Positions 9,812 to 58,107 of a stretch of DNA of 64,000 bases are shown one piece after another. The stretch is from NCBI GenBank assembly GCA_946500615.1, contig CAMMWP010000002.1, positions 109,124 to 173,123 of the forward strand, given 5' to 3'. Numbering within the stretch: position 1 is the first letter of the stretch; each line of letters opens with the position of its first letter. A program made the translations under genes and the position numbers. The notes beneath the pieces are model-generated. The model was not told where the DNA came from. It searched no databases and saw only the letters and a list, made by a program, of their open reading frames with translations. The stretch comes from an uncultured Clostridium sp. (GTDB lineage: Bacteria > Bacillota > Clostridia > TANB77 > CAG-508).

Positions 9812-10195
9812 TTATTTCAATAAATCTTTATAATTATTTTTATCTTCTTGCATTTTTACCAATTGTGTAGTTAATAAGTAAACAATTTCCTTATTATAGT
9901 TATTTAGTTTTAGATAAGCTTCTAAAAATTTATCATCAACTAAATCATTAAATGAAGAAGAGTCAGACTCTATTAAATCATCAAAAAGGAAGTTAGAACT
10001 AATATTAAGTGCTTTACACAAATTAATAATTGTTGTTGCACTTCCAAAAGCAATACCTCTTTCTAATTGACTGATATACCTTGTTGATAAAGAAAGTTTT
10101 TCTGCTAATTTTTCTTGAGTATAATTTGTTCTAGATCTAGCTAATTTAATTTTTCTACCAATATTTTTTCTTAAATATTTCTCATTATTATCCAT
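9812..10195 (-). CDS. XRE-family transcriptional regulator
   Basis: HTH_3 pattern (IKLARSRTNYTQEKLAEKLSLSTRYISQLERG); SD GGAGGA. Confidence 0.75.
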   Translation of the reverse strand: MDNNEKYLRKNIGRKIKLARSRTNYTQEKLAEKLSLSTRYISQLERGIAFGSATTIINLCKALNISSNFLFDDLIESDSSSFNDLVDDKFLEAYLKLNNYNKEIVYLLTTQLVKMQEDKNNYKDLLK

Positions 10196-11194: not shown

Positions 11195-11288
11195 ATTGCA
11201 CACAAATTTCGACTTACGTAAAATTTGGTGCCAACAATGACGCGGGCTTTAAAATGTTATAAACAGAAAAAAGCCCGCTATTGTTTTT
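11195..11288 (+). repeat. Family A intergenic repeat, copy A3 (short subtype)
   Basis: TTGCAC-17-TAAAAT module, then hairpin AACAATGACGCGGGCTTT / AAGCCCGCTATTGTT and TTTTT. Ends 42 nt before rsmH. Confidence 0.8.
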
Positions 11289-17924: not shown

Positions 17925-19070
17925 ATGATAGAAAGAATGGTAAAGAAGAAAGGCAAGAGTTTTTCAAGCTTTCTAAAAAACCCAATTGATTTTACATTAT
18001 TGATAACCATATTGTTATTATTATCAATTGGGTTGATTATGTTACTTTCAGCAAGTTCACCATCGGCACTTTCTGAAAGAGGAAATAGCTATTCATATTT
18101 TTATAAACAAGCCATTTTTGCAGTAGCTGGTTTATTTATGATGTGGGTCATCTCAAATATAGATTATCGATTTTATCAAAAATATGCTAAATTAGCTTAT
18201 GTAATTGCATTTTTATCATTGCTAGCAGTGTTATTTATTGGTAGAACTGTCAATGGAGCAAAGCGATGGATTTATGTAACAGAGACATTGTCTGTTCAAC
18301 CATCTGAAATGACAAAAATGTTAATGATTTTATTTTATGCAGCTATATTAGTCAAAAACAGAGATGAATTGAGTAAATATGGAAAAGGATTTATAAAACA
18401 TTTATTATTATTAGTTCCAATTATTGGATTGCTAATAATAGAACCACATTTTAGTGCTTCCATTATCATTATTGGAATTGTAGCAATTATGATGATAATT
18501 GCAGGATGTAAATTTTGGCATTTTCTTGTAACAGGAGCAGTTGTGGGAATACCGGGAATCATTGGGTTGATTTTGTTAGAGCCATATAGAGCACAAAGAG
18601 TTGTGACCTTTCTAGATCCATGGAAAGATGCAACAGGAAATGGATGGCAAGTTATACAAAGTTTATATGCTATAGGCTCAGGAGGACTGTTTGGAGCTGG
18701 ATTAGGTGAAAGCAAACAAAAATATTTGTATATCCCAGAACCACATAATGATTTCATATTTTCTATATTAGGGGAAGAACTAGGGTTTATTGGATGTGCG
18801 ATTGTCATTATATTATTTGCTATATTCATATGGAGAGGAATATTAATAGCAATGAAATCGCCAGATATGTTTGGAAGTTTGCTTGCTATAGGAATTACAG
18901 CACAAATTGCAATACAGGTTATTATTAACATAGCAGTTGTTACATCATCAATGCCAGCAACAGGAATGCCATTACCATTCTTTAGTTATGGTGGATCTGC
19001 ATTGTTTATATTACTCTGTGAGATGGGAATACTTTTAAATATTTCAAAAGCAGGGGCAAAAAAAGAATAA
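17925..19070 (+). CDS. ftsW: SEDS-family peptidoglycan glycosyltransferase FtsW/SpoVE
   Basis: Ten-TM SEDS pattern (QPSEMTK, PEPHNDFIFS, GMPLPFFSYGGS). Start uncertain: 17874, 17925 or 17937. Confidence 0.85.
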   Translation: MIERMVKKKGKSFSSFLKNPIDFTLLITILLLLSIGLIMLLSASSPSALSERGNSYSYFYKQAIFAVAGLFMMWVISNIDYRFYQKYAKLAYVIAFLSLLAVLFIGRTVNGAKRWIYVTETLSVQPSEMTKMLMILFYAAILVKNRDELSKYGKGFIKHLLLLVPIIGLLIIEPHFSASIIIIGIVAIMMIIAGCKFWHFLVTGAVVGIPGIIGLILLEPYRAQRVVTFLDPWKDATGNGWQVIQSLYAIGSGGLFGAGLGESKQKYLYIPEPHNDFIFSILGEELGFIGCAIVIILFAIFIWRGILIAMKSPDMFGSLLAIGITAQIAIQVIINIAVVTSSMPATGMPLPFFSYGGSALFILLCEMGILLNISKAGAKKE

Positions 19071-19177
19071 AAAGGGATTTTGGGGATAGACGCATGTTCC
19101 CTTTTTATAGAATACATACAAAAATTTAAAATTTAATAAAAAAGGGAAAAATGCGTCTATCCCTAAAATCCCTTTTT
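19070..19177. terminator. inverted pair of family E terminator-like units between ftsW and murG
   Basis: AAAAGGGATTTTGGGGATAGACGCATGTTCCCTTTTT (19070-19106) and its near-perfect inverted copy (19138-19177). Confidence 0.6.
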
Positions 19178-19199
19178 AGGAAGGAATGAGAAAAAGAAA

Positions 19200-20330
19200 A
19201 TGAAAGTAGTTATTGCAGCGGCAGGAACAGCGGGGCATATTAATCCCGGTTTGGCAATTGCAAAAAAAATACAAGAAGAGCAAAAGGATGCAAAAATAGT
19301 TTTTATTGGTACAACAAGAGGTTTGGAAAATGATTTAGTGCCAAGAGCAGGATATGAATTAAAAACAATTGATGCTTATGGATTAAGTAAACAGCTTTCT
19401 ATAGAAAATATAAAAAAGATGATTAAGACAATAAAGGGATTTGGAGAAGCTAAAAACATATTAAAAGAATTAAAACCAGATATTGTGATAGGAACAGGAG
19501 GATATATTTGTGGTGCAACTATCTCAGCAGCACATCATTTGAAAATACCAACTTTATTACATGAAAGTAATGCATTTCCCGGAAAAGCAGTAAAACTATT
19601 GGCTAGGAAAACAGATACCATTTTGGTTTCTTTTGAAGTAGCTATGGAAAGAATCAAGCATGCAAAAAATGTCGTTTATACAGGAACACCTGTTAAAATA
19701 AAGAAACAAGATTACAGTAAACAACAAAAAACAGAAATGATAAGAAAAATAGGGCTAAGTGAAACAATGCCTATCATATTAGTATTTGGAGGAAGTCAAG
19801 GAGCTAGAAGGATTAATCATGCCATTATGGAGATTATAAAAAATGGAAGCAATGAACAATATCAAGTGATTTGGGCAACAGGACCGAAACAATATGATAT
19901 AATAAAAGAACAATTAGAAAATGAACAAAAAAATATTAATCATATTAAAAACATGAAAATTCTTCCATATATCTATAATATGGAAGAAATCATGAATATC
20001 GTAGATGTTATAGTGGCAAGAAGTGGGGCAATGACAATTACAGAGATATCAAATTTAGGAAAACCATCTATTTTGATTCCATTACCAAATGTAAGTCATG
20101 ATCATCAATTATATAATGCAAAAGTGCTAGAAAAAGTAAAAGCAGCCAATATTATTTTAGATAACGAACTAAATGGAGAAAAATTGGATAAAAATATCAA
20201 GGAAATTGCATTAGATAAAGAGACTTGTCAAGAGATGGGTAAAAATGCATTAAAAATTTCTACAAATCATGTTGAAAATAAAATATATGAACAAATTATA
20301 AAAACGATTCGTCAAAAGATGTCAGAATGA
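19200..20330 (+). CDS. murG: UDP-N-acetylglucosamine--N-acetylmuramyl-(pentapeptide) pyrophosphoryl-undecaprenol GlcNAc transferase
   Basis: AAGTAGHINP, FGGSQGA and ARSGAMTITE motifs. Confidence 0.92.
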   Translation: MKVVIAAAGTAGHINPGLAIAKKIQEEQKDAKIVFIGTTRGLENDLVPRAGYELKTIDAYGLSKQLSIENIKKMIKTIKGFGEAKNILKELKPDIVIGTGGYICGATISAAHHLKIPTLLHESNAFPGKAVKLLARKTDTILVSFEVAMERIKHAKNVVYTGTPVKIKKQDYSKQQKTEMIRKIGLSETMPIILVFGGSQGARRINHAIMEIIKNGSNEQYQVIWATGPKQYDIIKEQLENEQKNINHIKNMKILPYIYNMEEIMNIVDVIVARSGAMTITEISNLGKPSILIPLPNVSHDHQLYNAKVLEKVKAANIILDNELNGEKLDKNIKEIALDKETCQEMGKNALKISTNHVENKIYEQIIKTIRQKMSE

Positions 20331-21802
20331 AAGGGAAAATAATGATTAAAAGTATACAATTTAAAATTATTATCGTATTTTTTCTAATAGGAATTATCAC
20401 AATTACAAGTTTAGGAGCCATATATATTCGCTCAATTAATGCTTTAGAAATCGGGATAAACACAAATGAAATTGGAAATTTAACTGAATTAGAAAATTAT
20501 ATTGAACAAATGAGACAAACCAATATCACATCACTGATAATTGCAGGTGTGGTATTTGTTGTAGGTGGTATATTAATAGCGATTGTGTTATCTAGATTTG
20601 TTATTTATCCAATCAATAAATTAATAAAAAGTGCAGAAAAAATAACAGAAGAAGAAAAGAAAAAAATACCACATAAAGAAGAACATAAAAAAGCCAAAAG
20701 CAAGAAAAATGAAGCAGCTAATATTGAAAATGTTTTAGGTGTTATGACAACAGAGCTAAAGGAAAAATTAAGTGAAGTTTCAACCCAAAAAAACCAAATA
20801 GAAACCATTCTTTTACATATGACAGATGGAATTATCGCCTTTAATATGGAGGGGGAAATTATCTTAATTAACCCAGCAGCTAAAAAGTTTTTAAGTATTG
20901 GACCAGAAGATATTACATTCGATGATATTTTTGCCAAATTTAAATTAGGAATTAATATGGAAAAAATTATTTATCTAGAAAATTGGACTTCAACAGAACA
21001 AAGGATACAAGTAGAAGATAAATATATGAACGTGTTTTTTGCACCATTTAAGAATGAATCAGATAGACCAAATGGTGTTATAGCGGTTATCCAAGATATA
21101 ACAGAACATGTAAAATTAGATAATATGCAAAAAGAATTTGTGGCAGATGTATCACATGAATTGAAGACACCAATTACTTCCATTATGGGATATGCGGATA
21201 CTTTATTAGAAGGAGAATATGATAAAGAGACACAGGACAAGTTTTTAAATGTGATTGCATCAGAGGCGAGAAGAATGGCACGACTTGTTACAGATTTATT
21301 AACATTATCAAGATATGATAATAATAAAAATAAAGTAAGAAAGGTATCTTTTGATTTAGGAGAATTGGTTAAAAAATGTCAAGATAAATTAGCAATAGAA
21401 ATCAAAAAGAAAAATCATACAGTAAATTCTTTTGTAACAGCAGATGTTCCGCCAGTTTTTGCTGACAAAGATGATATCGAAAGAGTTATTTTAAATATAT
21501 TAACAAATAGTATTAAGTATACACCAGAAGGTGGAGAGATAAAGATTTATGTAGGATTTGTCTATAATGATGCTTATATAAAAATTTTTGATAATGGAAT
21601 AGGGATACCAGAAGAAGATTTATCTAGAATATTTGAAAGATTTTATCGAGTAGATAAAGCACGTACAAGAGAAATGGGAGGTACAGGTTTAGGCCTTTCT
21701 ATTGCAAAAGAAATTTTAGATAAAAATGGTGGAAGTATCGATATAAAAAGTACAGTAGGACAAGGAACGGAAGTAGTTATTAGAATTCCTACAAAAGGTT
21801 AA
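20327..21802 (+). CDS. sensor histidine kinase (2 TM, PAS, HisKA, HATPase_c), no adjacent response regulator
   Basis: H-box SHELKTPITSI; N/G boxes NSIKYTP, DNGIGIP, GGTGLGLSIAKE. ATG 20327 overlaps the murG stop (ATGA). Confidence 0.88.
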   Translation: MKGKIMIKSIQFKIIIVFFLIGIITITSLGAIYIRSINALEIGINTNEIGNLTELENYIEQMRQTNITSLIIAGVVFVVGGILIAIVLSRFVIYPINKLIKSAEKITEEEKKKIPHKEEHKKAKSKKNEAANIENVLGVMTTELKEKLSEVSTQKNQIETILLHMTDGIIAFNMEGEIILINPAAKKFLSIGPEDITFDDIFAKFKLGINMEKIIYLENWTSTEQRIQVEDKYMNVFFAPFKNESDRPNGVIAVIQDITEHVKLDNMQKEFVADVSHELKTPITSIMGYADTLLEGEYDKETQDKFLNVIASEARRMARLVTDLLTLSRYDNNKNKVRKVSFDLGELVKKCQDKLAIEIKKKNHTVNSFVTADVPPVFADKDDIERVILNILTNSIKYTPEGGEIKIYVGFVYNDAYIKIFDNGIGIPEEDLSRIFERFYRVDKARTREMGGTGLGLSIAKEILDKNGGSIDIKSTVGQGTEVVIRIPTKG

Positions 21803-22027
21803 TGTTCAGACCTCCCCATTTTGGATTAGGTATATGTTAAATTTTTAAGGTTCTCGGCTACCCTCCAATTCTCGTTTAAGAAATTCTAATATCTAAATCA
21901 TAACGATACCCGGAAACAGGACCCTTTATGACTTATATATAAGAATTTCTAAAACGATTCCGGTCGCATTCGAACCTTAAAAATTTAACATATACCTAAT
22001 CCAAAATGGGAAGGTTTGAACATTAAC
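21798..22027 (+). repeat. Family B long-hairpin element, copy B1 (56-nt arms, 118-nt core)
   Basis: Arms 21798-21853 and 21972-22027 are complementary at 54 of 56 positions. The core is about 94% identical to copy B2. Confidence 0.85.
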
Positions 22028-22126
22028 TCAAAAGGATAGACATTACAAAAAAATTGAGGTTTAGATTGAAAATTAAAAAAAATTAAGGTATAATAAATTA
22101 GATTTAGATAAAAAGGAGAGAGAAAA

Positions 22127-22765
22127 TTGAATCCAAAGATAAAGGAAATTTTAGAATGGTTATATTGTATTATTATTGCAGTTGTATTAGCATTAATATT
22201 TAGATATTTTATTGGCACACCAACAATAGTACAACAAGTATCTATGAAGCCAACATTAGAACAAGATCAAAGGTTATGGCTTAATCGATGGTCAAGAACA
22301 ACAAAAACATTACCAAAAAGAGGAGAAATTATCACTTTTGAAGCACCATCCAAAAAGTCATTTACAAATTCAGAAATAGATAAAAATAACCCAGTAGCTG
22401 TATATGATAATGAACCAACAAATATATTTGGAAAATTTACAAAATATGTGTTAGAAATCGGAAAGGAAAGTTATATAAAGAGAGTGATTGCATTACCCGG
22501 AGAACATGTAGAAATAAAAGAAGGAAATGTATTTATCAATGGAGAAAAAATGGAAGAGCCATACTTACAAGAGGGAGTTGTTACAGATGTGACAGGAGTA
22601 GGATTTTCAGATTTTATTGTTCCAGATAATACTGTTTTTGCTATGGGAGATAATCGTACACACAGCACAGATTGTAGAGTTTTTGGATGTATTCCACTAG
22701 AAAAAATAGAAAGTACAGTGGCAATAAGAATATGGCCATTAGATAAATGGGGAAAAGTAGATTAG
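22127..22765 (+). CDS. lepB: signal peptidase I
   Basis: S26 motifs SMKPTL, YIKRVIALPGE, GDNRTHSTDCR. TTGAAA-17-TATAAT promoter upstream. Confidence 0.9.
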   Translation: MNPKIKEILEWLYCIIIAVVLALIFRYFIGTPTIVQQVSMKPTLEQDQRLWLNRWSRTTKTLPKRGEIITFEAPSKKSFTNSEIDKNNPVAVYDNEPTNIFGKFTKYVLEIGKESYIKRVIALPGEHVEIKEGNVFINGEKMEEPYLQEGVVTDVTGVGFSDFIVPDNTVFAMGDNRTHSTDCRVFGCIPLEKIESTVAIRIWPLDKWGKVD

Positions 22766-24946: not shown

Positions 24947-25033
24947 GAAAAAAAGGGGATTTTTGAGGATACACTCAATCTTCCCTTTTTAATATTAGGA
25001 AAGTCATGCTGACTTTCTAATATATTAAAACAC

Positions 25034-25123
25034 ATTGCACACAATTTTACGTATGTAAAATTGGCGCCGAACAATAACGCGGGCTTTAAAATGTTATAGA
25101 TAGAGAAAAAGCCCGCTATTGTT
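25034..25123 (+). repeat. Family A intergenic repeat, copy A4 (short subtype)
   Basis: TTGCAC-15-TAAAAT module plus hairpin AACAATAACGCGGGCTTT / AAAGCCCGCTATTGTT. Ends 22 nt before the TPK gene. Confidence 0.8.
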
Positions 25124-29099: not shown

Positions 29100-29170
29100 T
29101 CTCAAATTGCCTCCTTTTTATTAAAATTTTACGACTTTAGTATATGCCTAAATGGATCTAATGTCAATAC

Positions 29171-29215
29171 GGGACAGGCCAAAATGGACAAAAATTGGTT
29201 AAAAGGAACAGACCT
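29171..29215 (+). repeat. Family D GGGAC-rich unit, copy D4
   Basis: GGGACAGGCCAAAATGGACAAAAATTGGTTAAAAGGAACAGACCT aligns with the copies at 48268, 48669 and 48787 (inverted). Confidence 0.6.
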
Positions 29216-29323
29216 GCTGGGGGACTAGACATATATAATATAAAGCCATTCACGATTTTGTATAAGCTAAATTTTTCGTAGAACTTGCACAAAAAAATAT
29301 GAGCCTCTTTCATTAAAAATGAA

Positions 29324-29514
29324 ATCTGAGGGGATCTATATGGTATATTTTTAAGGTTCTCGGCTACCCTCCAATTGCCGTTTAAGAAATTCTAATATCT
29401 AAATCGTAACGATACCCGAAAACAGGACCCTTTACGACTTATATATAAGAATTTCTAAAACAATTCCGGTCGCATTCAAACTCTTAAAAATATACCATAT
29501 AGATCCCCTCAGAT
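29324..29514 (+). repeat. Family B long-hairpin element, copy B2 (32-nt perfect arms, 127-nt core)
   Basis: Arms 29324-29355 and 29483-29514 are perfectly complementary but differ in sequence from the B1 arms. The core is homologous to B1. Confidence 0.85.
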
Positions 29515-29643
29515 GAGAAAAGCTGAATGGTAACACTTGGTACATATCTAATAAAGATTTTTTACAAATTACTTGTATAATAAAGATAATTATGATATAA
29601 ATATAGTATAAAAATAAAGCTAAGGAAGAAAGGCGGAATTTTT

Positions 29644-30378: not shown

Positions 30379-30472
30379 AACAATGGCGGGCTTTCTTAAA
30401 CATGTTCTTTATTTATAATATTTTAAAGCCCGCGTCATTGTTCGACGCCAATTTTACGTAAATAAAATTGTT
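30377..30472 (-). repeat. Family A intergenic repeat, copy A5 (long subtype, inverted orientation)
   Basis: The reverse complement aligns with A1 and A2, including the ATGTTTAAGAAAGCCCGCC segment. Confidence 0.8.
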
Positions 30473-32811: not shown

Positions 32812-33441
32812 ATGAATAGAAAATTTGTTGCAAAAAGTAATTTTGTTTTAAGAAGAGTTCTAAATTCAGAAGATAATCTGGATATTTTAAAAGAATTTAT
32901 AGAAGTGATATTAGATATCAATATAAAAGAAGCTAAAATTAATCCATATCTAGAAAAAAAGAAAAATAACTTACCAGCAGAAGAAAATTTTGGTATTGCA
33001 GATTTAAGAATAAAGACAAACGAAAATGAAGAATTTAATATAGGAATACAAATGATAGATGGAGAACATATCCTAACAAAAATGTTTTTGTATTATGCAC
33101 AAATTTATAGTAACCAACTAGAATATGATGATAACCGAGAAATAGCAAAAACGATAACCATTAACATTTTAGATTTTATATTTACAAAAGAAATGAAATA
33201 TCATAGTAGAATGGTATTAAAACATGAAGAAATACAAAATACAATAGAAGATTACCTAGAAATGCATATAATAGAATTGCCTAAGTTCTCAATAAAAATA
33301 GGGAAGGAGATGAAGCTAAAAGAAGCTTGGATAAGCTATTTAAAAGGCGACAATATAGAAGAGGCAATTAAAAGAAGCAAAAAAATACAAAAATTAGAGA
33401 ATGTATTAAAAAAATATTGGAGAGAAGAAGTAATGGAATAA
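32812..33441 (+). CDS. Rpn-family / PD-(D/E)XK nuclease-like putative transposase (short, possibly truncated)
   Basis: N-terminus SNFVLRRVLNSEDNLDILKEFIEVIL and the D...IQ core (ADLRIKTNENEEFNIGIQMID) resemble the PDDEXK_2/Rpn family. No SD is within range of the ATG. Confidence 0.5.
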   Translation: MNRKFVAKSNFVLRRVLNSEDNLDILKEFIEVILDINIKEAKINPYLEKKKNNLPAEENFGIADLRIKTNENEEFNIGIQMIDGEHILTKMFLYYAQIYSNQLEYDDNREIAKTITINILDFIFTKEMKYHSRMVLKHEEIQNTIEDYLEMHIIELPKFSIKIGKEMKLKEAWISYLKGDNIEEAIKRSKKIQKLENVLKKYWREEVME

Positions 33442-51247: not shown

Positions 51248-51324
51248 GGCGAAGTAGCTCAGTTGGCTAGAGCATTCGGTTCATACCCGAAGGGTCATGT
51301 GTTCGAATCACATCTTCGCTACCA
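51248..51324 (+). tRNA. tRNA-Met (CAT anticodon, elongator type), CCA encoded
   Basis: Manual cloverleaf. Acceptor GGCGAAG/CTTCGCT, D arm GCTC/GAGC, anticodon stem TTCGG/CCGAA with loop TTCATAC, T arm ATGTG-TTCGAAT-CACAT, then ACCA. It lacks the three G-C pairs of an initiator anticodon stem. Confidence 0.9.
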
Positions 51325-51336
51325 AAATATTACACA

Positions 51337-51387
51337 ATGCTAAAAACAAGGTATTTCAAAGAGTTTGAAATACCTTGTTTTTAGCAT
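51337..51387 (+). terminator. terminator after tRNA-Met
   Basis: 24-bp perfect inverted repeat ATGCTAAAAACAAGGTATTTCAAA / TTTGAAATACCTTGTTTTTAGCAT with an internal T-run. Confidence 0.75.
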
Positions 51388-51549
51388 TGAATAGGAAAAA
51401 TCGAGTTTTCCTATACAAGAACATCGTTTCGATCTAACAATTGCAGTCATGATAACAGTAGTAGTAACATTTATTTTAGTAAAAGTCAGACTAAAGTAGA
51501 AAATGTCAAATATCTGGATAAAATCATATAATATAAAGAAGTGTGAAAA

Positions 51550-55539: not shown

Positions 55540-55613
55540 ACTAAAAAGGGATTTTGGGCACGCACTCATTTTTCCCTTTTTTTGGTATCTGTCTCAAAAA
55601 GAAAGGAATTCGA

Positions 55614-57824: not shown

Positions 57825-57866
57825 GTCTACAGTAGATATTTCCTGTAGCAGGTTGAGTGATTTTTT

Positions 57867-58063
57867 GTTTCTGTTCAGTGTTTAGTTCTCTGGAGGTATA
57901 TATATTATATTTTAAGCGGATTTCGGGGGGACCGACACGCTACATACTCTTATTAAATCAGTGACAGTTCCGTGGGAGCTGATTTCATTAGAGTATGTAA
58001 AGTGTTGGGATAGCGAAAAATATAATATATATACCTCCAGAGAACTAAACACTGAACAGAAAC
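57867..58063. repeat. long-hairpin element C (47-nt perfect arms, 103-nt partly self-complementary core)
   Basis: 57867-57913 is the exact reverse complement of 58017-58063. Inner arm ends (GGTATAT...TTTT then AAG) resemble family B. Confidence 0.85.
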
Positions 58064-58107
58064 ATTTTTTTTAAAAATTGTGCAAAATATCTCTGTTTCC
58101 ATAGACA

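What the first reader, a model, noticed from the sequence alone, without database searches (positions are those of the whole stretch)
21798..22027. Family B: ~190-230 bp long-hairpin elements with a conserved core and copy-specific, self-complementary arms
B1 (21798-22027) and B2 (29324-29514) share a ~145-nt centre with about 9 differences: ATTTTTAAGGTTCTCGGCTACCCTCCAATT...TTCCGGTCGCATTC....

The outer arms differ in sequence between the copies, yet each copy pairs with itself:
- B1: 56-nt arms, complementary at 54 of 56 positions.
- B2: 32-nt arms, complementary at 32 of 32 positions.

Inside the core there is a clean compensatory change. B1 has TCATAA paired with TTATGA, and B2 has TCGTAA paired with TTACGA (A-T to G-C).

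The core folds into a long imperfect hairpin, with CGTTTAAGAAATTCTAATAT pairing with TATATAAGAATTTCTAAAACG. The left arm of B1 begins inside the last codons and stop of the histidine kinase gene.

Classical MITE terminal inverted repeats would be conserved between copies, so this pattern does not fit a simple MITE. It suggests one of three things: selection for a ~200-nt hairpin RNA or DNA, insertion of a core into pre-existing palindromes, or arm homogenisation within each copy. No adjacent reverse transcriptase, TnpB or transposase gene is present.
Basis: seen in the sequence. Interest (0 to 1): 0.65.

Follow-up and report, generated by a model that had tools for sequence, protein, structure and literature searches.

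The report
Long-hairpin miniature transposon (MITE) family
The two elements are copies of a 230-bp non-coding mobile DNA repeat from chicken-gut Clostridia that folds into one long hairpin, and its two arms most likely stay matched because they are recombined or copied against each other in place, so this is a new family of a known kind of element, not a new RNA gene.

Summary
B1 (21798-22027) and B2 are two copies of one repeat. Arm complementarity is 54/56 in B1 and 32/32 in B2, and fold z-scores are -18 and -12.7.

The "not a MITE" reading does not hold.
- **Size and coding:** full copies are 230-231 bp, with stop codons in all frames.
- **Target-site duplications:** three independent insertions carry 8-bp duplications. 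Two are confirmed against empty sites in related species.
- **Copy number:** the core is about 50-80 times deeper than its single-copy flanks in chicken-gut metagenomes.
- **Databases:** there is no Rfam, plasmid or phage match.

The arms are not unrelated. They have the same length and are homologous, differing by about 33-42% between copies, against about 7% for the core.

Within six copies, the inner 31 bp of the arms show 0 mismatches in 186 pairs and no G-U pairs. The outer 16 nt are 17.5% mismatched. This edge-decay pattern is what gene conversion between inverted repeats produces.

Orthologous copies in related strains show three further things: the core in both orientations, one arm replaced, and one compensatory change that arose in place.

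The best reading is a MITE whose arms are homogenised within each copy. The termini (GTTNCTGTTCAGAC) and the 8-bp duplication suggest an IS6/IS26-like transposase, but no partner was found. This is a new member of a known kind, of moderate interest.

The parts
21798..22027 (+). B1, a full-length family-B element (230 bp): left arm, asymmetric core, right arm
   Evidence: The boundaries come from empty-site comparison with L011, L014, L018 and L019.
21790..21797 (+). Left copy of the B1 8-bp target-site duplication (TACAAAAG), inside the last codons of the histidine kinase gene
   Evidence: Relatives end CCAACAAAAGGATAG with no element. Strain L006 has TACCAAAG as its right copy.
22028..22034 (+). 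Right copy of the B1 target-site duplication (T-CAAAAG, one base lost), followed by the old gene end GATAG
21798..21850 (+). B1 left arm: terminus GTTAATGTTCAGAC, a variable middle and a conserved inner part TATGTTAAATTTTTAAGG. Element bases 3-5 (TAA, 21800-21802) now serve as the kinase stop codon.
21851..21869 (+). Conserved left internal-loop motif TTCTCGGCTACCCTCCAAT. The CTCGG(C/T)T..C motif is shared with related hairpin families.
   Evidence: invariant in 5 copies. Related families in L044, L034 and L019 carry it too.
21873..21956 (+). Apical imperfect hairpin of the core, with conserved mismatches and bulges and one compensatory pair (21900/21929)
   Evidence: In metagenomes most copies have G at 21900 and C at 21929.
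21957..21975 (+). Conserved right internal-loop motif ATTCCGGTCGCATTCGAAC. The G(C)RCATTCG motif is shared with related families.
21976..22027 (+). B1 right arm. Position 22023 (T) pairs with 21802 (A). Strains L006 and L008 have G here.
29324..29534 (+). B2, a second family-B copy. The inverted repeat is 29324-29355 with 29483-29514. The right terminus runs to 29534 (GGTAAC). The left terminal ~20 nt are replaced by unrelated sequence, so it is probably an immobile relic.
   Evidence: The surrounding intergenic region carries about 390 nt between two conserved anchors where L016 has about 45 nt.
57866..58064 (+). A related long-hairpin element ('family C') with the same architecture. It has 48-nt perfect arms, terminus GTTTCTGTTCAG, inner arm GGTATATATATTATATTTT and a different core.
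   Evidence: z = -18.9. Depth is 100-400 against 8-20 for the flanks, and other copies have different but complementary mid-arms.
20327..21802 (+). Histidine kinase gene. Its last Gly codon and stop codon are partly supplied by B1.
   Evidence: (HisKA, HATPase_c).
22127..22765 (+). Signal peptidase I gene downstream of B1. Its promoter-like site (22066-22094) lies outside the element.

Best explanation
Family B is a non-autonomous DNA transposon of the MITE type, 230-231 bp long. It is present in many copies in a clade of uncultured, spore-forming chicken-gut Clostridia.

Shown:
- It inserts into AT-rich sites with an 8-bp target-site duplication.
- It has semi-conserved termini (GTTNCTGTTCAGAC) and no coding capacity.
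- Filled and empty sites both occur among related genomes.

Inferred:
- It is moved in trans by a DDE transposase. The 8-bp duplication and the TGTT-containing termini point to an IS6/IS26-like enzyme.
- The whole element is a quasi-palindrome. The two arms are inverted copies of one homologous sequence that drifts between copies.
- Within each copy the interior of the arms is kept perfectly complementary at the DNA level. This happens by intramolecular recombination, gene conversion or template switching between the two arms.
- The same process flips the asymmetric core and occasionally replaces one arm.
- Only the arm edges, which lack homology on their outer side, escape correction and decay.

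The copy-specific self-complementary arms are therefore most likely a product of concerted evolution of an inverted repeat. They are not evidence of an RNA gene, nor of insertion into palindromes.
For: Mobility:
- The B1 site is empty in L011, L014, L018 and L019. It is flanked by TACAAAAG and T-CAAAAG in the window.
- The L002 copy is flanked by ATTTTTTT and ACTTTTTT. The site is empty in the window, L016 and L054.
- The L042-L050 copy is flanked by ATTAAAGA and ATGAAAGA.
- Core depth is about 500-1000 against 8-16 for the flanks in runs X1, X5 and X6, and contigs break inside the element.
- The copies sit at at least 6 distinct insertion sites in several species.
- All frames are closed, and there is no Rfam family.

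Arms:
- 29 of 94 pairs carry double changes, against 11.2 in shuffles (0 of 500 shuffles reach the observed value). All 155 cells in columns 22-52 are Watson-Crick, with no G-U.
- In six copies every left/right mismatch lies 31 nt or more from the inner end.
  - The inner 31 bp have 0 mismatches in 186 pairs.
  - The outer 16 nt have 14 in 80.
  - The same inner positions differ by 33% between copies.

Dynamics at orthologous copies:
- L002 and L034 differ by 3-4% genome-wide. They share one arm but differ by about 30% in the other.
- The arm plus core-left junction lies next to holB in L034 and L035. It lies next to the signal peptidase gene in L053 and L052.
- In L006 the right half is replaced by the reverse complement of the left half.
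- Pair 21802/22023 is A-T in the window and A.G in strains L006 and L008, whose flanks differ by only 0.3%.

Termini and literature:
- The IS6/IS26 terminal-repeat consensus is GGTTCTGTTGCAAA with an 8-bp duplication (PMC6807381).
- The termini here are GTTGCTGTTCAG, GTTTCTGTTCAG and AGTTCTGTT.
- Long-hairpin MITEs of this size, such as Chunjie, are known (PMC3184786).
Against: - No autonomous element or transposase with matching ends was found in the window, in 54 related loci or in viral contigs.
- The centre of the element is more conserved than its termini (6.7% against about 40% divergence). This is unusual for a MITE.
- Two asymmetric loop motifs are conserved across sister families and remain unexplained.
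- Perfect inner arms could also reflect selection for a duplex of 31 bp or more.
- The sample is small: seven insertion loci.
- The inversion evidence rests on short-read metagenome contigs, which can mis-orient a segment between inverted repeats. L006 is a single k=31 contig.
- Core-plus-arm contigs occur in metatranscriptomes, so an RNA role is not excluded.
- The three target-site duplications each carry one difference.
Confidence: 0.7

Rival explanations
1. It is a MITE, but the arms are not homogenised in place. Transposition needs a perfect hairpin (in single-stranded DNA or otherwise), so only masters with matching arms spread. Every copy seen is a young offspring of one of many diverged master lineages.
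For: - Several arm lineages coexist. Arms close to those of B1 occur elsewhere in run X2 with 3-4 differences.
- Many distinct complementary arm pairs appear among loose ends.
- Compensatory changes in hairpin spacers are known for REPINs (PMC3116915).
Against: - The copies look old. Their outer arms are 17.5% mismatched and each 8-bp duplication carries a difference, yet the inner 31 bp have 0 mismatches in 186 pairs.
- Changes occur at orthologous, vertically inherited copies.
- L034 and L035 keep a copy whose arms do not match.
Confidence: 0.13
2. It is a structured non-coding RNA, or a cis-acting RNA hairpin in untranslated regions (stabiliser, RNase III site or regulator). In this reading its stem is maintained by selection on RNA pairing and its conserved loop binds a protein.
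For: - Folding is very strong and covariation is clear.
- The asymmetric loop motifs are invariant, and the core stem keeps conserved bulges.
- 6 of 7 loci are in sense orientation downstream or upstream of genes.
- Metatranscriptome contigs contain core and arms.
Against: - No Rfam family matches. Only sub-threshold plant miRNA-hairpin models hit, at 58 bits against a gathering score of 230.
- The inner arms have no G-U pairs or single-sided changes.
- The element has target-site duplications, dozens of copies and presence/absence variation.
- The core occurs in both orientations at one locus.
- There is no promoter or terminator of its own.
- The RNA evidence is low depth, and DNA carry-over is possible.
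Confidence: 0.1
3. It is a REPIN-like element moved as single-stranded DNA by a single-copy REP-associated tyrosine transposase (RAYT, of the IS200/IS605 type).
For: - It has a hairpin architecture with compensatory changes, as REPINs do.
- Y1_Tnp genes occur in relatives L010, L013, L019, L034 and L035. The L010 protein has its best NCBIfam hit to REP-associated tyrosine transposase, though below the curated cut-off.
Against: - 8-bp target-site duplications are not made by Y1 transposases.
- The RAYT-like genes are flanked by a different repeat, the GGGGACG hairpins.
- The window has no Y1 gene.
Confidence: 0.04
4. A mobile ~125-nt core inserts into the centre of pre-existing local palindromes such as terminators, so the arms are host sequence.
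For: The arms differ between copies, and some copies sit just after genes or terminators.
Against: - The arms are homologous, of equal length and share termini in all copies.
- Empty sites lack the arms entirely.
- In L002 the terminator hairpin is intact outside the element.
Confidence: 0.02

Closest known systems
Chunjie and similar long-hairpin bacterial MITEs (Geobacter uraniireducens; reviewed in PMC3184786)
   Same: - Chunjie is 178-235 bp, AT-rich and non-coding.
- It has terminal inverted repeats and 9-bp direct repeats.
- Its predicted hairpins fold at -98 to -130 kcal/mol.
- It sometimes overlaps gene ends.
- Family B is 230 bp, has an 8-bp duplication, folds at -110 kcal/mol and overlaps a gene end.
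   Different: - There is no sequence relation that I could test, and the host phylum differs.
- The paired arms here are 53 nt long, with a variable middle that co-varies.
- The asymmetric core is conserved across species.
REPINs (REP doublets forming hairpins) with RAYT transposases (PMC3116915)
   Same: - Both have conserved parts separated by a segment where only length and pairing are kept.
- Compensatory changes are common in both.
- Both are high-copy intergenic hairpins.
   Different: - REPINs have no target-site duplication and are tied to a Y1 transposase flanked by the same REPs.
- Family B has 8-bp duplications.
- The RAYT-like genes of this clade are flanked by another repeat.
bcr1 of the Bacillus cereus group (reviewed in PMC3184786)
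   Same: bcr1 is a Firmicute MITE-like repeat of about 155 bp with direct repeats. It is transcribed, and compensatory changes keep its double-stranded structure.
   Different: bcr1 has 5-bp direct repeats and a cruciform with two stem-loops. It has no long variable arms, and its compensation is interpreted at the RNA level.
IS6/IS26 family insertion sequences, including the long clostridial members (PMC6807381)
   Same: Both make an 8-bp target-site duplication. The IS6/IS26 terminal-repeat consensus GGTTCTGTTGCAAA shares G1, TTCTGTT and G7 with the termini GTTGCTGTTCAG (B), GTTTCTGTTCAG (C) and AGTTCTGTT (E).
   Different: - No transposase gene was found.
- G2 and G10 of the consensus are not kept.
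- The inverted repeats here are far longer than 14-18 bp.
- The resemblance is a lead, not a demonstrated relation.
Quasi-palindrome correction by template switching, and gene conversion between inverted repeats (general knowledge, not checked in a paper here)
   Same: Both processes produce a perfect interior with decaying edges, strictly Watson-Crick double changes, inversion of the segment between the repeats, and replacement of one arm by the complement of the other.
   Different: These are processes, not families. Their action here is inferred from sequence patterns only.

Membership tests
Bacterial MITE (non-autonomous DDE-type transposon) | Small (under about 400 bp) and without a transposase or other gene | tested here: met
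   Copies are 230-231 bp with stop codons in all six frames. A peptide search found no predicted protein.
Bacterial MITE (non-autonomous DDE-type transposon) | Terminal inverted repeats | tested here: met
   The arms are 53-56 nt, and the termini GTTNCTGTTCAGAC are shared by the copies.
Bacterial MITE (non-autonomous DDE-type transposon) | Direct target-site duplication of fixed length | tested here: met
   Three insertions have an 8-bp duplication, each with one difference. It is unclear for L001 and L003, and B2 is truncated.
Bacterial MITE (non-autonomous DDE-type transposon) | Many dispersed copies, with filled and empty sites in related genomes | tested here: met
   Core depth is about 50-80 times the flank depth. 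Copies sit at different loci in several species. Empty sites were seen.
Bacterial MITE (non-autonomous DDE-type transposon) | A cognate autonomous IS with the same ends | tested here: inconclusive
   None was found in the window, the fetched loci or viral contigs. Whole genomes of the hosts could not be searched.
IS6/IS26-derived element | 8-bp target-site duplication | tested here: met
   The family property is taken from PMC6807381.
IS6/IS26-derived element | Terminal-repeat consensus GGTTCTGTTGCAAA with G1, G2 and G7 | tested here: inconclusive
   G1, G7 and the (C)TGTT motif are present. G2, G10 and CAAA are absent.
IS6/IS26-derived element | Mobilised by a DDE_Tnp_IS240-type transposase | not testable with these tools
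   No such gene is in the held sequence. This needs host genomes or an assay.
REPIN / RAYT system | No target-site duplication, and the same repeat flanks a single-copy Y1 transposase gene | tested here: not met
   Duplications are present. The Y1 genes in relatives are flanked by GGGGACG hairpins, not by family B.
Curated structured RNA family (Rfam 15) | A match at the family gathering score | tested here: not met
   The only hit above gathering score in the window is a tRNA. At the element the best hit is MIR7533, at 58 bits against a gathering score of 230.
Retron non-coding RNA (msr/msd) | Lies next to its reverse transcriptase gene, and is single-copy | tested here: not met
   The window has no reverse transcriptase, and the element is multi-copy. 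The retron-type reverse transcriptase in L010 and L013 is a separate insertion.

The most novel reading that the evidence does not exclude
The B, C and E long-hairpin elements may form a superfamily that is more than passive MITEs. Their features are conserved termini, a variable stem of 31 bp or more that is strictly Watson-Crick, and two conserved asymmetric loop motifs (CTCGGCT..C and GCRCATTCG).

One possibility is that they replicate or transpose through a hairpin intermediate. In that case one arm would be re-synthesised from the other, with flip-flop of the core, as in rolling-hairpin replication.

The other possibility is that the conserved loop is the binding site of a host or domesticated nuclease. 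That would give a new helper-plus-hairpin system analogous to RAYT with REPINs.
Probability: 0.12. Interest if true: 0.7.

Novelty: new member of a known kind. Interest (0 to 1): 0.35.

Why it matters
- It explains a striking sequence pattern, covariation over about 30 base pairs, without invoking an RNA gene. Long inverted repeats can mimic RNA covariation through DNA-level homogenisation. The absence of G-U pairs and the decay at the arm edges are what distinguish the two.
- It documents an abundant repeat family that is not in Rfam and has no match in the plasmid or phage collections searched. The family breaks short-read assemblies of chicken-gut Clostridia.
- It can rebuild gene ends. B1 supplies the stop codon of a histidine kinase gene.
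- It marks insertion hot spots. The kinase / signal peptidase / holB spacers also receive REP-like hairpins, another hairpin family and a retron in related species.
- If the conserved loop motifs turn out to be a protein-binding site, the family could lead to its still unknown transposase or helper.

Tried and rejected
- **Rfam:** scans at gathering and permissive thresholds found no family.
- **Plasmids and phages:** blastn of the core found nothing.
- **Metagenome and viral scans:** a gapped core pattern against JGI metagenomes and viral contigs gave 0 hits. Terminus patterns against viral contigs gave 0 hits.
- **Peptide search for more copies:** I searched the protein database with peptides from spurious ORFs that cross the element.
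- **Strain variation in the B1 arms:** laying contigs of four runs on each arm showed none. Contigs simply break at 21844 and 21981.
- **B2 in other assemblies:** three of the four contigs break inside the element. The fourth, L022, spans it but adds nothing new.
- **Autonomous partner:** I looked for paired termini 0.1-3 kb apart in all fetched loci and found none.
- **Rpn-family nuclease gene (32812-33441):** considered as a possible helper, but no family-B-like ends flank it.
- **IS10-like similarity:** the mid-arm CTGAGAGG motif was judged coincidental.
- **Retron link:** rejected. The reverse transcriptase in L010 and L013 is a separate retron-type insertion.
- **Insertion into pre-existing palindromes:** rejected on arm homology and empty sites.
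Full report
**1. The observation**

Both elements are in the sequence as described.
- B1 has 56-nt arms at 21798-21853 and 21972-22027, 96% complementary. B2 has 32-nt perfect arms at 29324-29355 and 29483-29514.
- As single strands they fold at -109.8 kcal/mol (z = -18.07) and -77.2 kcal/mol (z = -12.66). No shuffle folds as well.
- The two copies share 153 nt at 92% identity. The 129-130 nt core is 94.6% identical.
- The core motifs occur nowhere else in the window, and none are expected by chance.
- The compensatory pair 21900/21929 is real. It is A-T in B1 and G-C in B2.
- The B1 left arm overlaps the end of the histidine kinase ORF 20327-21802.

**2. Origin and spread of the family**

The window holds a cell-division (dcw) cluster, spoIIGA/sigE/sigG, RNase R and gerA genes, so the host is a spore-forming member of the Clostridia. 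Runs that hold it are chicken-gut metagenomes.

An exact 20-mer of the core hit only three of 185,579 species genomes. All three are uncultured Clostridia or Eubacteriales MAGs. JGI metagenomes, viral contigs, plasmids and phages gave nothing. Rfam has no family for it. The only weak hits are generic plant miRNA hairpin models far below threshold.

In chicken-gut assemblies the core is about 500-1000 deep where the single-copy flanks of this organism are 8-16 deep. Contigs break inside the element. The core is therefore repeated some 50-80 times per genome equivalent, possibly spread over several related species.

**3. It is a mobile element with an 8-bp target-site duplication**

A look-up of a ferredoxin identical across relatives, and of signal peptidase homologues, brought in about 50 syntenic loci.

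- **B1.** In L011, L014, L018 and L019 the kinase gene ends ...CCAACAAAAGGATAG/A, and the spacer follows directly. The window reads CCTACAAAAG[GTTAATGTTCAG...CTGAACATTAAC]T-CAAAAGGATAG. Strain L006 has TACCAAAG as the right copy. The element is therefore 21798-22027 with an 8-bp duplication TACAAAAG. It now supplies the last two bases of the Gly codon and the TAA stop, so the protein still ends TKG.
- **L002.** This copy lies between signal peptidase and holB, just after a terminator T-tract: ATTTTTTT[GTTACC...GGTAAC]ACTTTTTT. The site is empty in the window, L016 and L054.
- **L042-L050.** This species carries an independent insertion a few bases from the B1 site: ATTAAAGA[GTTGCTGTTCAGAC...GTCTGAACAGCAAC]ATGAAAGA.

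All full copies are 230-231 bp and closed in all frames. These are the defining features of a MITE. Long-hairpin MITEs of this size are known. Chunjie, for example, is 178-235 bp, has 9-bp direct repeats and folds at -98 to -130 kcal/mol (PMC3184786).

**4. The arms**

The arms of different copies are not unrelated. They have the same length and align. Each arm has three parts:
- a terminus, GTT(A/G)(C/T)(T/C)(G/A)TTCAGAC;
- a variable middle;
- a conserved inner part, TAT(G)GTTATATTTTTAAGG.

On five copies, 29 of 94 predicted pairs show changes on both sides, against 11.2 in shuffles. No shuffle of 500 reaches the observed value. In alignment columns 22-52 all 155 cells are Watson-Crick, with no G-U pair and no mismatch.

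Measured on six copies:

| Region | Within one copy (left vs right arm) | Between copies |
|---|---|---|
| Inner arm | 0 mismatches in 186 pairs (inner 31 bp) | 33% different (inner 35 nt) |
| Outer 16 nt of arm | 14 mismatches in 80 (17.5%) | 42% different |
| Core | not applicable | 6.7% different (range 3-10%) |

Every left/right mismatch lies 31 nt or more from the inner end of the arm. If the outer mismatch rate applied to the interior, about 33 mismatches would be expected there, and none is seen.

This pattern has three features: a perfect interior, decaying edges, and double changes without G-U intermediates. Gene conversion or template switching between inverted repeats produces exactly these, because correction needs homology on both sides. 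Selection on an RNA stem would tolerate G-U pairs.

**5. Direct signs of the process at orthologous copies**

- **One arm replaced.** L002 and L034/L035 are 3-4% diverged genome-wide and carry the same insertion. Their signal-peptidase-side arms are the same apart from two single-base length differences. Their holB-side arms differ by about 30%, so in L034 and L035 the arms do not match while in L002 they do.
- **Core in both orientations.** The distinctive arm ...GAGAGGGGAGGGTATG... joined to the left side of the core lies next to holB in L034 and L035. In L053 it lies next to the signal peptidase gene. L052 also has the core in that second orientation at the same site.
- **Half-element variant.** In strain L006, about 99% identical to the window in the flanks, the right half of B1 is replaced by the reverse complement of the left half, with a deletion.
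- **A compensatory change in place.**
  - Position 5 of the left end is A in the window and in L006, which makes the stop codon. Most other copies have C there.
  - Its partner 22023 is T in the window but G in L006 and L008. G is the state in most other copies.
  - The right-hand flanks of those strains differ from the window by only about 0.3%.
  - That a rare difference should fall on this base and be the complementary one is unlikely by chance, roughly 1 in 1,000 by my estimate.

Caveats:
- All of this rests on metagenome contigs.
- An assembler can mis-orient a segment between perfect repeats longer than its word size.
- L006 is a single k=31 contig.
- L034 could be a chimera of two strains. 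That would still imply two alleles with both arms changed.

**6. A wider superfamily**

- **Family C.** The window element at 57866-58064 has the same build (z = -18.9). Its terminus is GTTTCTGTTCAG and its core is different. It is 10-20 times deeper than its flanks. Other copies keep the terminus but have different, complementary mid-arms.
- **Other relatives.** Elements in L044/L042 ('E', terminus AGTTCTGTT), L034 4430-4535 and L019 7845-8075 share the inner arm and two asymmetric loop motifs, CTCGG(C/T)T..C and G(C)RCATTCG.
- **Possible transposase.** The termini and the 8-bp duplication resemble the IS6/IS26 family. Its consensus is GGTTCTGTTGCAAA with 8-bp duplications, and it includes long clostridial members (PMC6807381). 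This is a lead only. No transposase with such ends was found.

**7. Rivals**

- **RNA gene or cis-acting RNA hairpin.** This is not excluded. The loop motifs are invariant, most copies are in sense orientation, and metatranscriptome contigs contain core and arms at depth 3-9. Against it stand the duplications, the copy number, the two orientations at one locus, the lack of G-U pairs and the lack of a promoter or terminator of its own.
- **REPIN/RAYT mechanism.** This is contradicted by the duplications. The RAYT-like genes of this clade are also flanked by a different GGGGACG repeat.
- **Insertion of a core into existing palindromes.** This is contradicted by arm homology and by the empty sites.
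- **Selection among transposing masters, without correction in place.** This explains the variety of arm lineages. It does not explain the perfect interiors of old copies or the changes at orthologous copies.

**8. Verdict**

The element is a new family of a known kind, a long-hairpin MITE. It shows unusually clear concerted evolution and flipping of its inverted arms, and it has unexplained conserved loop motifs.

My confidence that it is a MITE-type mobile element is about 0.85. For the full explanation, including homogenisation within each copy, it is 0.7. For the IS6-like partner it is about 0.3.

Noticed in passing
window 57866-58064: This is a second long-hairpin repeat family ('C'). It has 48-nt perfect arms, terminus GTTTCTGTTCAG and a different core, and lies between the RNase R and gerAC genes. 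It is 10-20 times deeper than its flanks in metagenomes, and other copies have different complementary mid-arms.
   Followed up: partly
window 19068-19178, 24951-24989, 55542-55580; L010 9871-11183; L019 10177-11136: These are REP-like hairpins of the form AAAAAGGGATTTTGGGGACG...CCCTTTTT, present as singlets and doublets. In relatives the same repeats flank, in inverted orientation, a Y1_Tnp gene. The L010 protein has its best NCBIfam hit to REP-associated tyrosine transposase, below the curated cut-off. This looks like a REP/RAYT system in gut Clostridia.
   Followed up: partly
window 6427-6498, 6822-6893, 11201-11272, 25038-25109, 30412-30471 (minus strand): This is a repeat family of about 72 nt (...GGCACACGAACAATGACGCGGGCTTTAAAATGTTATAGACAGAAAAAA), usually just upstream of genes. 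There is no Rfam match and its nature is unknown.
   Followed up: no
L010 14098-15195 and L013 14098-15195: In two related species a retron-type reverse transcriptase (PADLOC RT_II-A, E = 4e-53) sits between the kinase and signal peptidase genes. That is the same spacer that holds B1 in the window. The kinase / signal peptidase / holB spacers are an insertion hot spot. Besides family-B copies they receive family E and another hairpin relative, REP-like hairpins, a retron and, in L036-L040, a 63-aa ORF.
   Followed up: partly
window 32812-33441: This is an Rpn-family PD-(D/E)XK recombination-promoting nuclease / putative transposase gene (TIGR01784, above the curated cut-off). It is conserved in synteny in relatives, and no family-B-like ends flank it.
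   Followed up: partly
window 5403-10195: This looks like a small island. It holds a RhuM-family protein, a large serine recombinase (7064-8575) and two HTH regulators, next to two of the 72-nt repeats and just upstream of mraZ. It may be a remnant of an integrated element.
   Followed up: no
L045 2800-2860: One strain's copy of the L042-type element has a cluster of five C/G-to-A changes within about 35 nt of the right core. The contig coverage is 3.9, so this could be sequencing error or local hypermutation.
   Followed up: no
window 29105-29323: The spacer upstream of B2 holds about 390 nt between two conserved anchors where relative L016 has about 45 nt. The extra sequence includes GGGGAC-type fragments. 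L011, L014 and L018 carry a different long hairpin (GGGGACGTGATGACTTTGGGGACGGAGC...) at the same place.
   Followed up: partly
window 51335-51389: This is a perfect 26-nt hairpin with a 3-nt loop, 14 nt after the tRNA at 51248-51321.
   Followed up: no
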